Position numbers: made by a program. Shown piece after piece: positions 27,001 through 48,000 of a stretch of 64,000 bases of DNA (position 1 is the stretch's first letter; every line of letters starts with the position of its first letter). Source of the DNA: Harriotta raleighana (Eukaryota); contig JBNZDD010013679.1 in the NCBI GenBank assembly GCA_050575255.1, positions 1,973,367 through 2,037,366 of the forward strand, in the 5' to 3' direction.

Positions 27001-30000
27001 AGGAGCGTTTCTATAGATTTGTTCTGAATTTACCCCCCGTTCAATCGCAGGTTGTGGCCTCTAGTTCTACTGTGAAGTACAAGATAAAAAGACTCATCAG
27101 GGTCTATATTATCTATTCTCTTCAGAATCTTAAAAGACTGTAATCATATCATCACTCAACTTCCTCTTCTCCAGTGCGAATATATCCAGTTAATCTAATT
27201 GATCCTCATAGTCCAGTCCATCACCTCAATCATTTTGGTTTCATTTCTCCATAACCTCTCAATCACTGCAATATTCCTTTTAATTCCCCAAATAAAATTG
27301 GTTACTCACTCCACGACTATTTGTGGAATATTGCTGTGTGCAAATTGGCTCTTGCATTTGCCCATAAAATGCACATTCGCTCCACTTTACAATACATCCT
27401 GAGTGCTTTGGGAAGTCCTCCTGATATGAAAGGTATTGTACAAAATGCAAGATTACTCTAAAGTGTCATGATTATTTTATAGGCGAATATGGCTACCAAC
27501 ATAGTAATGGCCCACAATCAGCCATCAAATGAGTGACCAATTTTATCTTGAGGATTATTGGCCAGGAAACTGGAAGAAACTCCCTTCTCTTTCTGAATAG
27601 TGGCATGGAACTTTTAATGTCCACCAAAACTCAAGTTAGCATCTGAATGATGAAAATTCACAGACCCGGCAGATCACTAAAAAAGGTAATGATTGAAATC
27701 ATAATGATTTAAATTTCCTAAATGTGCAGCTTAGGAGTAATGTTAACAATAGAAGCTGCTGTGTCTGTGTAACTACTTATCATTTATTGCTGAAACTGCT
27801 CCATCCTATAAAGCAGTTTGTAGGTTCAGTTGGCAGGGAGCAAATCTTGAAAAATCCAATCAAGAAAGATTTAATTAATTTTTTTTAAAAATTGAAAATT
27901 CCACAGCGGCATTCAGCTCCAAAGAATATTTCCAAGCTAATGCACTGGAACATTCAGAGGTGGCTTATCCTGATGAGAATCTTCTTTTTCCCTTCACCAG
28001 TTAAAATGTTAAGCCTGTTACAAAGGTTGGGGAAATGACTAAAGCTGCTTAAAAAACAGGTAAGATATTAGCACCTGAAAGCGACAGAACACCATGGCTG
28101 ATTACAATGGAGTTATCTGCTTCTATAAATTATACCAGGACTATATAAGCATGGATGCCAGTGGCATTTGACGATTTCTGCAGGTTTCTAAATACCAGCT
28201 CCCTGGAATCCACACAGGGTATTTAAAGTTTCCTCCGTTTCGCTGATCAGAAACATTATGCAACATTAATTGACTTTTTCTCTCGTCTCACAGCAGGTCA
28301 CCACCTGAAGTAAGAAGACAATTGTGGAACACCATCACTTTTAAGTGTTTGTACTCAAAGCTGCACATTCAAGTTGACGGGTCTAATTTGCAAGACTAAG
28401 AAAATAATTTGTAAAGCCGTACGGTTAGATTGGTTTGAAAGGTCAGATTCAATCGCTGATTCTGGAATCCACTATATTGTGAGGTCAAAATATAATAACA
28501 ATAGTATTCATTATTAGAATATTATTTTGAGGTTGAAAAGGAGATTGGCAACTAAATAAACTTTCAGGCACTCAGTGAAACACAACTTGGAGGGAGCATT
28601 GTTATGAATTCAGTTTTTTTTAAATGCTTTCATGAATTGGATTCCAGTAAATCAATACAGATGTCCTCACAGCAGACAGAGAGTTGTTTACAGAAAACAT
28701 GAAGAAGTGAGCAAGCTGGCTTTCACAGCCCATGTATAATATGCCCTCTGATAGACCACTTACGAGTACACTTGAGTGAGGTGAGTCAGTGTAGGTGAAA
28801 GTTGAAATGCATAAATTGTGGGAATTGTCTATTTGTGCTTCCAACTGTGTTATTCAATATTTGCATTTTGTGGGTGACTCCCAACAGCAAAGGCTTTGGG
28901 GAATGTAGGATTCTGGAAGTCTGAGCAGCAAGAGGTAGGTCATTCTGGAATCGGCGAGACATGGGATTCATGCTCAATACAGTATTGAAGCATATAACAA
29001 CAACAACAAAATTACATTAATAGAGCGCCTTTCATGTCAGGAGGACATCCCAAAGAATATACTACATGGGGCAATAACATTGCACTGCTGGGAGTCATCT
29101 GAGCAATGCAAGTATTGAACAGAATAGTTTGTAACCCAATTCAGTCGTTAACTATCCCACACATAATGAAATATTGCCTTGTACCTATCCCCAAATTGCT
29201 CTTTGTAGTTCATAAACCTGTGTTGTTATTCCGCTGTAGCAGTGCATCTGAAAATAATGGAAGGACAAGGGCTCAATGGGCCAAGTAGTCTTTTGCCTAT
29301 GAATTACGAACTTTGTCTTTGTAACACAATACTGAAGACAGGTAAATGCTGGATTTCGACTGTGCACAAATAAGTTTTTACTCCACCCTGGACCATAATG
29401 ATCAGTGCCTTTGCATTGATAAAATGTAGCCTTCTGCCAGGACTATTAAGTATCTTGGGACATCCTCAAGACATGAAAGACCCTATATATATATATATAT
29501 ATATACATAAATAAATTTGTATTGCAAGTACAGATGTTCACTGCTGAAAATTTAACAATTGTGCTAAAAGATCATCAGCTCACAGCATAAAGATACCATC
29601 AGCCCATCTCGCCATTTGATTAGTTTACAACAATGCTTGAATCCAGTTTCATGGTTCCTCCTGTCCCATGATCCCTGAATACTGTACCCTTACTTAGCAA
29701 GTATTTATTTCTCCTCCTTTTAAACATTCCAATTGATTCTGCCTCTACAGCTTCCTGCTGTTACAGTGCATTCTTGTATTAGATTACCAAACCGTAAATA
29801 ATAGTTTAAGGAAGCAAGTCTGTGGTATGAAAATAAGATAGGACTGTTATAAGCCTGAGAGAAGTGTAACTGTTTCTGTTGATACTGTGATTTGTTTTAC
29901 ACAATTTTTGAATGATCCATTTTCGAATTTTTTTTTCCATTTCAGGCAAATAATCTATTGTCACAGATAGCACCAAAGACCAATGTTGGATTGAAGCTGA

Positions 30001-45000: not shown

Positions 45001-48000
45001 CAATGGAGTTATCTGCTTCTATAAATTATACCAGGACTATATAAGCATGGATGCCAGTGGCATTTGACGATTTCTGCAGGTTTCTAAATACCAGCTCCCT
45101 GGAATTCGCACAGGGTATTTAAAGTAGCACCAACCGTTTCCTCCGTTTCGCTGATCAGAAACATTATGCAACATTAATTGAGGCAAGTCAATGACTTTTT
45201 CTCTCGTCTCACAGCAGGCTATCACCTGAAGTAGGAAGGTTTGTGGGACATGTATTGTCTGAGACACAGTTTCCTTAATGTCCACCTAAACAGGTTGTTG
45301 AGGCCAAAGGCCAATCGCAGTACTGCACTATAATAGCAACTTGGTCACGAAGATCATCCTAACATTAGGATGAACTGGTATTTACATAAAACAACTGTAA
45401 TTAAAAAGCTGCATGTATGGCAAATATGTCACAATGGAGCAAACAAATTGAATATTTTAGAAGCTGAAATTATTAATTCATCATGATGTGAGGTTAACAC
45501 TAACATTTTTACAAAATAAGTATTAAAGTACAACTGTATACAAGGCACTACAGATGGAACACCCACTGGAAATTATAAATTTGCATAAGGTCACCATTTC
45601 ACAAACCCTTCACCATTCAGTTTGGCAGCCTGAAATTACACCTGGAATCAGTGAGTGTGCAATTATGCACTTAGGCAACTTTCCAGTACTTCAAACCATT
45701 AAAGGGTAAGTGCAGCTGTTAACTGGAATCCACTTTCTAGAGCACTAGCTCCACCAATATCCAGTTGACATGTTGCAAGATGGCCATTAATAAATTGCCC
45801 CCCTTCCAAGTGCCACATACAAAATGAATAGGCAATGAATGGTTTACAGCAAAGCAATGGCAGATGTACTGAGCCTTAAAACCAGCATTTTCCCTTCAAC
45901 TTTGTTTATTGATGTACTGAACATGAAAAAAGTACAAATGATCCAAACACAATATAAGGAAAAAACATGTACAGCCTCTTAAATACTCAAAAGAACATAT
46001 ATTCCAATCAACTGATGTAAATTTAGTCATACTTTACAACTTCAAATAAATACAGACTTACATTTTATTAATTAAGTGATCAACACTGTAAAGTGAAGGC
46101 CAATTCACATGCAATCCCCACTAAAATTTTGCTGCATTTGACTAGGCTACAAATAGACTAGAGGCTCATGTCAATTACTGGCCTTCATATTTAGCTCAGA
46201 GGTCTTCGGTTTTTAAAGCTGTAGATGGGCTCTTGTGCATTCCCTAAATGCAAGGCCCAGACAATTAGTTCAAGACGCCAGTTAGCTATCAGCAGTCAGT
46301 GGGTTAGCATGAAAATGTGGGTACACTTTCATGTGCTTCACAGTATATGTACTTCAACTAGGCTGAGAATTTATAACTACAGTATTCAAAAAGCAATAGC
46401 AAAGATAAATGTACAACTATGTTATGCATAGCACATTGCTTGTTCTAAGGGGAAGAGTACATGAGCATTTCTCAGTTTACACAAAGCAGGACATTTAACT
46501 ACAGTTATCAGTGCACCTGGTCGAGGATTGCAATCCTACGGCCAATTTGTTCTTAGAAGAATAAGTTAAGCTAGATGCTTCTCTGAAAATAGAGTTTTTC
46601 AAATTTATTCCTGTTATGATAAAGAACGGCTATATCTCCCCATAGTGATTTAAGCATTATTTGCAAATTTACTTCAATGTTTCAACAGGACATCTTCCTT
46701 TTTTAGTATGAAAATGTAAGCATATTTGTTCAAACTGTGGTTTTACCCATTGTACCACAAATGCATATATAACAAAAGCAGTGTCACTATAGTTTTAAAG
46801 AGCTGCAACAAGACTATCTACAGACCAACAACAAACAAATTTGATGCACTGCAATTCTGGTCATTAGGACAACAAAACAAGTAAACTTCAAGTAATGTTA
46901 ATGCAGTCTACATGAAACAAAAAACATACAAAGCATTCAAGGTTCTTAAACAGCACTTGGCATGTAGTCAAAAAACAAAAAAGCAGTAAAGTCCATAACA
47001 CAAGGACTTATTTACATTACACAATGCTCAGGTGCAGTCTCTCATCATTATCCTTTTGCATTTCCGAAATGTATTCCGACGGCTTTGACATCTGTATTGC
47101 AAAGCAAGTCCAATTTACTTTTTTTTCACCCAATTCCAGCACAGACAATACAGCAGGAGAGTGTACATCACTAAACACCTTGAGCTCGAACAGAAGGGAA
47201 TACTTTGAGGAAGAACAGATTTTCCCCCCAATTTTCAATAATTTTGATATTTCATATTTGCATGCACTCTCAATGTTAGCCTCTTTTAAGTCTTGAAATC
47301 ACAATTAAATGTGAGCTATTTTTGCCACAAACAATAACCAGGATGATCCACTGATTATACATATGAAACCCACAGTGCCCACTGGTTCTACATCTTGGTA
47401 ATATAAAGGTCTTCAAGGTAATCTCTACATGACAAGTCTTTCCAATAAATACCAGCCACTGGAAATTTCCTGGGTTTTAATTTTTTTTCAAAAGCTCACT
47501 AGATGTCATATGAAGAGATTCTCAAAGTAACCAAGTCAAAATATTTGTTCCAGGTCCTGTAAAAAGTTTCTCCAAATTTTTCTTTTTATAAAAATAGATG
47601 CTTTTTTTTTTAAACCCACTTCATCAAAGAGGCTCTCTCTCTTTGGCAAGGTACTGTGTTACGAAAAAAAGATTTTTTTCCAAGAACCTTACAATAAGGT
47701 ACAATTGAAGCCCACCCTTTTCCCAATTCCAAAATCTTAATATCAAAATAAAATACTGTTTCACTTAAACACTTCCAACACATAAAAGAAACAAACAGCA
47801 ACTCAAAACAGTTCTGTGAAACAATCAAGACTTTTAAATGAAATGAATGTTTACCCCCAAAAAACCTCACAAATTCACTTTTTGCACTGTTTCAAGCCAG
47901 TTGCGTAAAAATCTAGGAGTTATTTTCTTTCTTCCTTCAGCTGAAACAGTTTCTTTTAAAAGGTCCACCTCCATCTCAAAGGAGGTAATGTTTTGGGGCA

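What the first reader, a model, noticed from the sequence alone, without database searches (positions are those of the whole stretch)
27545..45240. ~600 bp non-TE block duplicated 16.9 kb apart with a near-identical core but old, diverged flanks
Seen: 27705-28312 and 44601-45233 are direct copies. The first ~500 bp differ at only a few positions and there are two ~12-nt indels near the right end. The ~150 bp to the left (27545-27704 vs ~44450-44600, SINE remnant plus unique sequence) are recognisably homologous but much more diverged. The block has no TIRs, TSDs or SINE/LINE tail. Inference: the duplication is old and the core has been kept alike by purifying selection on both copies or by gene conversion, which suggests a functional module (enhancer, non-coding exon or 3'-end module) present twice downstream of ELAVL2.
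Basis: partly seen in the sequence, partly recalled or inferred. Interest (0 to 1): 0.72.

Follow-up and report, generated by a model that had tools for sequence, protein, structure and literature searches.

The report
Duplicated 0.8-kb block, recently homogenised
Two copies of a 0.8-kb non-coding stretch lie 17 kb apart downstream of the ELAVL2 gene; their middle 520 bases are nearly identical while one edge is old and worn, which most likely means one copy overwrote the other, and no function was shown.

Summary
Copy A (27503-28331) and copy B (44407-45250) are direct repeats 16.9 kb apart.

- **Core:** 27705-28227 and 44601-45123 match at 516 of 523 bases.
- **Right part:** two indels of 12 and 13 nt, and 86 of 90 matches.
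- **Left flank:** about 200 nt, a fragment of a SINE-like repeat, only 72-77% identical.

This unevenness is far beyond chance (Fisher p=1.4e-24; 0 of 200000 permutations). The pair lies 3 kb and 20 kb downstream of the last coding exon of ELAVL2, which is on the minus strand.

The core has two copies in the window. It has no TIR, TSD, retroposon tail or LTR anatomy, no conserved ORF, no protein relative and no Rfam family. Every other dispersed repeat pair in the window is at most 82% identical.

My best reading (about 0.45) is an old small duplication whose indel-bounded middle was homogenised by non-allelic gene conversion, with no function required. Three of the seven core differences are CpG decay in copy A.

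Still open are selection on a functional module, a low-copy repeat family and an assembly artefact. No vertebrate genome collection was available, so copy number and cross-species conservation went untested. This is an ordinary kind of event of modest interest.

The parts
27503..27704 (+). Copy A, old diverged left flank: fragment of a SINE-like repeat in reverse orientation, lacking its tRNA-like head
   Evidence: 72-77% identical to 44407-44600. At least 6 other family copies are in the window. The last ~35 nt before the core hold indels totalling about 13 nt, with A longer.
27705..28227 (+). Copy A, near-identical core (523 nt)
   Evidence: 516/523 identical to 44601-45123 with no gaps. Only two copies in the window. 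Carries TpG/CpA where B has CpG at 27782, 27961 and 28212.
28228..28331 (+). Copy A, right part at intermediate divergence; homology ends here
   Evidence: 43 nt at 100%, then 47 nt with 4 substitutions. Lacks 12 nt and 13 nt that are present in B. The HSP ends at 28331 and the right flanks are unrelated.
44407..44600 (+). Copy B, old diverged left flank (same SINE-like fragment)
   Evidence: Shares an ~18-nt deletion and 8 derived bases with A's flank relative to six other copies.
44601..45123 (+). Copy B, near-identical core
   Evidence: Keeps 3 CpGs lost in A. Its stop-to-stop ORF 44599-44934 (111 aa) has no relatives and is interrupted in A.
45124..45250 (+). Copy B, right part, including two B-only stretches at 45124-45135 and 45179-45191
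48239..48565 (-). Context: last coding exon of ELAVL2 (third RRM), with the stop codon at 48236-48238. Copy B starts 2986 nt and copy A 19905 nt downstream of it.
   Evidence: RRM_1 E=2.3e-22. 100% identity over 109 aa to ELAV-like protein 2 of several sharks, a ray, a turtle and others.

Best explanation
An ~0.83-kb stretch of non-coding DNA, made of a fragment of an old SINE-like repeat plus ~630 nt of unique sequence, was duplicated long ago within the region downstream of ELAVL2. Since then the two copies have exchanged sequence by non-allelic (interlocus) gene conversion, in which a break in one copy is repaired using the other as template.

Conversion needs uninterrupted similarity. Once indels arose near 27685-27704, the ~200-nt left segment was cut off and diverged freely, to 23-28% mismatch. 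Later, the 12- and 13-nt indels cut off the right ~90 nt, which now shows 4.4% mismatch. The 523-nt stretch between the indels went on being homogenised until recently and shows 1.3% mismatch.

The differences seen now (CpG decay, a homopolymer-length change) are the first neutral mutations since the last transfer. No function of the block is needed for this.

**Shown:** the mosaic of divergence, its bounding by indels, the common descent of the flanks, and the absence of TE, coding and RNA-family features.

**Inferred:** that conversion is the cause, and the order of events.
For: 1. Three significantly different divergence levels occur in one collinear alignment: left 47/166 or 42/184, core 7/523, right 4/90.
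2. The change at the left is abrupt: 37/50 with 12 gap columns, then 49/50 and 50/50.
3. The near-identical core is bracketed on both sides by indels.
4. The flanks are true paralogues, not just two members of a repeat family. A-B identity is 72% against 55-66% to the six others. They share 8 derived bases, against about 1.6 expected from the counts (my arithmetic), and share a deletion.
5. The left-flank differences are 20 transitions to 22 transversions, so this is old saturated divergence and not local hypermutation.
6. The core differences are of the fastest mutational classes: 3 CpG transitions and a T8A5/T10A3 change.
7. The core length of 523 nt (613 nt with the right part) is of the order of known conversion tracts (recalled knowledge).
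8. No repeat family of comparable youth is in the window. The other 204 of 205 dispersed HSPs of 100 nt or more are at most 82.3% identical, median 70%.
9. Concerted evolution confined to part of a duplicate, with flanks diverged, is a described pattern (passages of PMC3924837; abstract of PMC1274310).
Against: - Conversion is inefficient between sequences as diverged as the flanks. The model therefore needs near-continuous homogenisation since the duplication, or some constraint on the core. Neither is shown.
- G+C of the core (0.377 and 0.387) is no higher than its surroundings (0.37-0.42). The signature of sustained GC-biased conversion reported for the BEX/WEX/GASP element (abstract) is therefore absent.
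- With two sequences and no outgroup, conversion and selection give the same picture.
- Genome-wide copy number is unknown.
- All 3 polarisable substitutions are losses in A and none in B. This could hint that B is protected, though with n=3 it is not significant.
Confidence: 0.45

Rival explanations
1. The core is a functional non-coding module, such as a regulatory element, a non-coding exon or a 3'-end module. Purifying selection keeps it in both copies, alone or by keeping the copies similar enough for conversion to persist.
For: - The core is 20-26 times less diverged than the flank.
- Indels occur only outside the 523-nt core.
- All 3 CpG-type differences are retained in B, the copy nearer the gene.
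- Both copies keep an AATAAA on the ELAVL2-sense strand 78 nt before the core's end (TTTATT at 27783 and 44679).
- In yeast duplicates, selection is held to sustain conversion in the constrained part only (passage of PMC3924837).
Against: - There is no conserved ORF, no Pfam hit, no protein relatives and no Rfam family. The Rfam search gave 4 hits in A far below threshold and 0 in B.
- Folding z is -2.0 on the minus strand and +0.1 on the plus strand, with 20 shuffles each.
- CpG observed/expected is 0.28-0.42, like the window's 0.32, so this is not a CpG island.
- 98.7% identity over 523 nt while neutral sequence reached 23-28% mismatch would need ultraconserved-level constraint in both copies.
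- The differences that exist are mutation-driven types.
Confidence: 0.15
2. The core belongs to a low-copy or young repeat (a mobile or repeatedly copied segment) with further copies elsewhere in the genome. Alternatively, it was copied again recently by templated break repair anchored in the older homologous flank. Either way the near-identity reflects a recent copying event rather than long-term homogenisation.
For: - 1.3% divergence fits a recent copy.
- The right end of homology is abrupt.
- The unit starts inside a SINE-like fragment, and a 17-nt SINE-like motif recurs 37 nt to the right of B. Repeats that could anchor template switching are therefore present.
- 33% of the window is repeated within itself.
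Against: - There are only two copies in 64 kb.
- No TIR, TSD, poly-A or SINE tail was found at the ends.
- No RT or transposase ORF is in or next to the block.
- A composite retroposon would diverge evenly along its length, which is rejected.
- A recently inserted retroposon should keep its 3' tail, and neither copy has one.
- No other repeat pair in the window exceeds 82.3% identity.
Confidence: 0.22
3. Assembly artefact: one locus truly holds a diverged paralogue, but gap filling or polishing wrote the other copy's reads into it.
For: - The assembly has local redundancy errors. 5 of 6 single-N positions sit at the joint of 95-180-nt tandem copies that are 97-100% identical.
- One core difference is a homopolymer-length change.
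Against: - No N lies within 5.7 kb of either copy; the nearest are 21969 and 36431.
- The copies differ by 7 substitutions, 3 of them CpG/TpG, which is not a typical read error.
- They also differ by two clean 12-13-nt indels.
- Reads from a 75%-identical paralogue would not normally be mis-recruited.
Confidence: 0.08
4. The two blocks are the LTRs of a 17.5-kb LTR retrotransposon.
For: Direct repeats of about 0.6 kb at 99% identity, 16.9 kb apart. The core starts with TG.
Against: - Homology continues 200 nt to the left of both blocks, which LTRs of one element cannot show.
- There is no TSD and no shared ...CA end.
- The interior holds SINE copies and non-LTR RT fragments, with only a weak RVT_1 hit at 36962-37330. 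No gag, protease or integrase hit appeared among the ORFs scanned: 10 of the 87 ORFs of 90 aa or more, 2 of them in the interior.
Confidence: 0.01

Closest known systems
Interlocus gene conversion or concerted evolution confined to part of a duplicate, for example yeast whole-genome-duplication pairs as reviewed in PMC3924837 (passages seen). The human gamma-globin pair is recalled only and comes from no call.
   Same: Paralogous copies on one chromosome, with a sharply bounded segment far more alike than its flanks. The model says homogenisation stops where divergence or heterology restricts conversion.
   Different: Those cases concern genes, where selection on coding sequence explains why the core stays convertible. 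Here nothing coding or otherwise functional was found, and the unit is only about 0.8 kb.
BGW element in the 5' UTRs of the BEX/WEX/GASP genes (PMC1274310; abstract and outline seen)
   Same: A non-coding motif kept alike among otherwise divergent paralogues by repeated gene conversion.
   Different: That element sits in the 5' UTR exons of more than 20 genes and comes with raised G+C. Here there are two intergenic or 3'-flanking copies beside a single gene, and G+C is not raised.
Duplicated conserved non-coding elements, dCNEs (PMC2781166; passages seen)
   Same: Non-coding sequence present twice in a vertebrate genome near a neural or developmental gene.
   Different: dCNEs lie beside paralogous genes, date from the early vertebrate genome duplications, and are defined by conservation across species. 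Here both copies lie beside the same gene, include part of a SINE-like repeat, and their conservation across species is untested.
LTR pair of an LTR retrotransposon
   Same: Two near-identical direct repeats of about 0.6 kb, several kb apart.
   Different: The shared flank lies outside the repeats, there is no TSD, and no gag/pol was detected between them.

Membership tests
Interlocus gene conversion (concerted evolution) between paralogous segments | Two paralogous segments in one genome that share descent | tested here: met
   Collinear homology runs 27503-28331 vs 44407-45250. The flanks share derived bases and a deletion relative to six other family copies.
Interlocus gene conversion (concerted evolution) between paralogous segments | A segment significantly more similar than the rest of the duplicate (mosaic divergence) | tested here: met
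   7/523 vs 47/166 mismatches, Fisher p=1.4e-24. 0 of 200000 permutations matched it.
Interlocus gene conversion (concerted evolution) between paralogous segments | In a tree with orthologues from other species, the converted part groups by species and the flanks group by locus | not testable with these tools
   No vertebrate genome collection was on hand.
Interlocus gene conversion (concerted evolution) between paralogous segments | Raised G+C in the converted tract (GC-biased conversion, as reported for mammals) | tested here: not met
   Core G+C is 0.377 and 0.387 against 0.37-0.42 around it. This is a frequent accompaniment, not a strict requirement, and a single recent event would not shift G+C.
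Interspersed repeat (SINE, LINE, DNA transposon, Helitron) | Many copies; terminal structures (tail, TIR, hairpin) and target-site duplication | tested here: not met
   There are 2 copies in 64 kb and no TIR, TSD or tail. Genome-wide copy number could not be tested.
LTR retrotransposon (LTR pair) | Homology confined to the LTRs, TG...CA ends, 4-6-bp TSD, gag/pol between them | tested here: not met
   Homology extends 200 nt to the left of both blocks. No TSD was found. The interior shows SINE copies and non-LTR RT fragments only, in the ORFs scanned: 10 of the 87 ORFs of 90 aa or more, 2 of them in the interior.
Conserved non-coding element / duplicated CNE | Conservation of the sequence across distant species | not testable with these tools
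   No vertebrate DNA collection was available. No comparison with human sequence was attempted.
Protein-coding exon | An open frame kept in both copies, with protein relatives | tested here: not met
   The 111-aa frame in B is stopped in A at 27889. It has 0 Pfam families, no word-indexed hit among proteins of 61-195 aa, and 0 hits among 1.84 billion representatives.
Known structured RNA family (Rfam 15) | A match at or near a family's gathering score | tested here: not met
   In A there were 4 matches at 13.6-20.2 bits against gathering scores of 48-88. In B there were 0 matches at E up to 10.

The most novel reading that the evidence does not exclude
The 523-nt core is a working non-coding module of the ELAVL2 locus, read on the gene's own (minus) strand. 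Both copies keep an AATAAA 78 nt before the core's end, preceded by an acceptor-like tract. The module would exist in two copies, and constraint on it would be what has kept the copies similar enough for conversion to go on while the SINE-derived flank decayed. It would then be a lineage-specific, duplicated regulatory or 3'-end element of a deeply conserved neuronal RNA-binding-protein gene, and the copy nearer the gene (B) would be the protected one.
Probability: 0.12. Interest if true: 0.55.

Novelty: new member of a known kind. Interest (0 to 1): 0.25.

Why it matters
If the conversion reading holds, this is one more small example of concerted evolution in non-coding DNA. It is useful mainly as a caution: a near-identical core with diverged flanks does not by itself show function. 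It also marks a pair of direct repeats that could mediate deletion or duplication of the 16-kb interval downstream of ELAVL2.

It would matter more if the core proved to be conserved in other cartilaginous fishes or to be transcribed. It would then be a duplicated regulatory or 3'-end module of a highly conserved neuronal gene, with a built-in neutral yardstick (the SINE-derived flank) for measuring the constraint on it.

Tried and rejected
- **LTR pair:** rejected. The left flank is shared, there is no TSD, and no gag/pol was detected in the ORFs scanned.
- **TIR, Helitron or retroposon ends:** none found.
- **Larger old tandem duplication of about 17 kb:** no other collinear hit with an offset near 16.9 kb. 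The hits with offsets of 15-19 kb are scattered repeat copies with other offsets.
- **Homology beyond the unit:** none found.
- **Core as an insertion inside a SINE that resumes on the right:** the right flanks match no repeat in the window. Only a 17-28-nt motif appears to the right of B, z about 4.
- **Left flanks as two independent repeat insertions:** disfavoured by shared derived bases and a shared deletion.
- **Local hypermutation of the flank:** rejected by 20 transitions to 22 transversions.
- **Coding exon:** rejected. The splice-site-like segment 27907-28059 on the plus strand is closed in all three frames.
- **Known RNA family or stable structure:** no support.
- **Literature:** a search for ELAVL2 with 'conserved non-coding' or 'elephant shark' found 79 papers with at least 2 of the 3 terms. 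The 8 listed do not mention ELAVL2, so I found nothing in print on this pair. This is a weak negative.
- **Species:** not established. The ELAVL2 exon is 100% identical in sharks, a ray, a turtle, a caecilian and squamates alike. The tRNA-headed SINE-like and CR1-like content agrees with the description of the elephant shark genome (passages of PMC1845163), but that is not proof.
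Full report
**What is there**

The window holds a direct repeat at the stated place. The repeat finder gives three pairs:
- 27705-28004 and 44601-44900, 99% over 300 nt, spacing 16896;
- 28228-28273 and 45136-45181, 100% over 46 nt;
- 28271-28317 and 45192-45238, 91% over 47 nt.

A base-by-base alignment resolves the unit into three parts.
- **Core:** 27705-28227 vs 44601-45123 has 7 substitutions in 523 ungapped columns (98.7%).
- **Right part:** 12 nt present only in B (45124-45135), 43 identical nt, 13 nt present only in B (45179-45191), then 47 nt with 4 substitutions.
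- **Left part:** 27503-27704 vs 44407-44600 is clearly homologous (local alignment z=45.7) but diverged. It scores 70-71% by BLAST, 119/166 in a multiple alignment, and 142 matches with 20 transitions, 22 transversions and 7 gaps pairwise.

The whole self-BLAST HSP is 27503-28331 vs 44407-45250. Outside it, nothing aligns: far-left z=-0.2, and the right flanks give z=2.1 at non-collinear positions.

The unevenness is far beyond chance.
- Core vs left: Fisher p=1.4e-24.
- Right vs left: p=1.2e-6.
- Core vs right: p=0.06.
- 0 of 200000 random placements of the 53 differences left a 523-column run with 7 or fewer.

Jukes-Cantor distances are 0.0135 for the core, 0.046 for the right part and 0.36 for the left part. 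The pairwise alignment gives about 0.27 for the left part by my arithmetic.

**Surroundings**

ELAVL2 is on the minus strand. ORF 48236-48580 holds an RRM (E=2.3e-22), and 53592-53885 holds part of another. The last coding exon, searched alone as window:48239-48565:-, is 100% identical over 109 aa to ELAV-like protein 2 of several sharks, a ray, a turtle, a caecilian and squamates. The paralogue is therefore ELAVL2, but the species cannot be read from it.

I searched single exons only. I do not take the window for human.

Copy B begins 2986 nt, and copy A 19905 nt, downstream of the stop codon at 48236-48238.

A third of the window is repeated within itself. It holds tRNA-headed SINE-like copies and non-LTR RT fragments. 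This agrees with the published description of the elephant shark genome (passages of PMC1845163) without proving the species.

**The left flank is a true paralogue pair**

It belongs to a SINE-like family with at least six other copies in the window. A and B are each other's closest relatives, at 72% against 55-66% to the others.

Of 116 columns where the six others give a clear consensus, 8 carry the same derived base in A and B, against 11 private to A and 17 private to B. Independence would give about 1.6 shared (my arithmetic). A and B also share an ~18-nt deletion.

Their differences (20 transitions, 22 transversions) are old and saturated, not a local burst of CpG decay.

**What the core is not**

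- **Not a visible repeat family.** There are two copies in 64 kb at word size 7. The other 204 of 205 dispersed HSPs of 100 nt or more are at most 82.3% identical, median 70%.
- **No transposon ends.** There are no TIRs, TSDs, tail or terminal hairpin.
- **Not an LTR pair.** Homology continues to the left of both blocks, and the interior shows SINE copies and non-LTR RT fragments. I scanned only 10 of the 87 ORFs of 90 aa or more against Pfam, 2 of them in the interior.
- **No larger tandem duplication.** No other collinear hit has an offset near 16.9 kb.
- **Not coding.** The 111-aa frame in B is stopped in A. It has no Pfam family, no word-indexed relative of 61-195 aa, and no hit among 1.84 billion representatives of all lengths.
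- **No known RNA family.** Rfam gives four far-sub-threshold hits in A and none in B.
- **No notable RNA structure.** Folding z-scores are -2.0 (minus strand) and +0.1 (plus strand) with only 20 shuffles each.
- **Not a CpG island.** CpG observed/expected is 0.28-0.42, like the window's 0.32.

**Most likely mechanism**

The mosaic fits non-allelic gene conversion between two old paralogues. It has a 23-28% mismatched left part, a 1.3% core and a 4.4% right part, and the core is bracketed by indels on both sides.

Indels interrupt the homology that conversion needs. The left segment would have been cut off first and the right segment later, while the 523-nt middle went on being homogenised until recently.

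The present differences are what the first neutral mutations would be. Three are CpG in B against TpG/CpA in A, and one is a T8A5 versus T10A3 change.

Concerted evolution restricted to part of a duplicate is well described. The review PMC3924837 (passages) says that concerted evolution ends when conversion is restricted. It also says that in yeast the homogenised region is confined to the constrained part, because selection keeps it similar enough to convert. The BEX/WEX/GASP 5'-UTR element is a non-coding example (abstract of PMC1274310).

**Against this reading**

- Conversion between sequences as diverged as the flanks is inefficient. The model therefore needs near-continuous homogenisation or some constraint on the core.
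- G+C is not raised.
- Two sequences without an outgroup cannot separate conversion from selection.

I put this explanation at about 0.45.

**Rivals**

- **Selection on a functional module (0.15).** It has in its favour the size of the contrast, the indel-free core, the three CpGs kept only in B, and an AATAAA on the ELAVL2-sense strand 78 nt before the core's end in both copies. No functional test was positive.
- **A low-copy repeat, or a recent re-copying anchored in the old flank (0.22).** This cannot be excluded without the genome. The lack of end structures and the uneven divergence speak against a retroposon.
- **An assembly artefact (0.08).** The assembly's local redundancy around single Ns suggests it. 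There are no Ns near either copy, and the differences between the copies are clean.

**What stayed unchecked**

- Genome-wide copy number, conservation in other species and read support could not be tested.
- No vertebrate DNA collection was on hand.
- Supplementary files of papers were not consulted and do not bear on the claims made.
- The gamma-globin example and typical conversion tract lengths are recalled and come from no call.

Noticed in passing
window 21830-22109, 36314-36538, 52577-52767, 54356-54582, 61673-62028: Five of the six single-N positions (21969, 36431, 52672, 54481, 61851) sit at or next to the joint of a tandem pair of 95-180 nt that is 97-100% identical. The N at 16063 has no such pair. 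This looks like contig ends that overlapped but were not merged, so sequence there is probably artificially doubled. The Ns were not filled.
   Followed up: partly
window 48236-48580 and 53589-53885, minus strand: ELAVL2 exons lie on the minus strand: the last coding exon with the third RRM, and an exon with the end of the second RRM plus the hinge. The gene therefore runs from high to low coordinates, and further exons should lie above 54 kb.
   Followed up: partly
window 34697-34759, 41521-41592, 55539-55608: Rfam tRNA matches just above threshold (30.7-32.2 bits), while ARAGORN calls no tRNA gene. These are tRNA-like heads of SINE copies.
   Followed up: partly
window 45275-45291 vs 44519-44535: A 17-nt motif from the SINE-like left flank of copy B recurs (16/17) 37 nt to the right of copy B. 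It may be the trace of another decayed SINE copy, or of the event that made the duplication.
   Followed up: partly
window 36959-37702 (minus), 2703-3440 (plus), 16126-17099 (minus), 11690-12950 (minus): Decayed non-LTR reverse-transcriptase ORF fragments. Only 36962-37330 gives a weak, sub-threshold Pfam RVT_1 hit. They show that the interval between the two copies is ordinary repeat-rich intergenic DNA.
   Followed up: partly
window 49700-50400 and 61600-62100: Purine/pyrimidine-rich low-complexity arrays (AG/CT-type tandem repeats) lie within the ELAVL2 gene body. The second one surrounds an N.
   Followed up: no
window 35069-35198: Two 58-nt direct repeats 72 nt apart (81% identical) in a locally G+C-richer stretch (0.45) between the two copies. 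Their nature is unknown.
   Followed up: no
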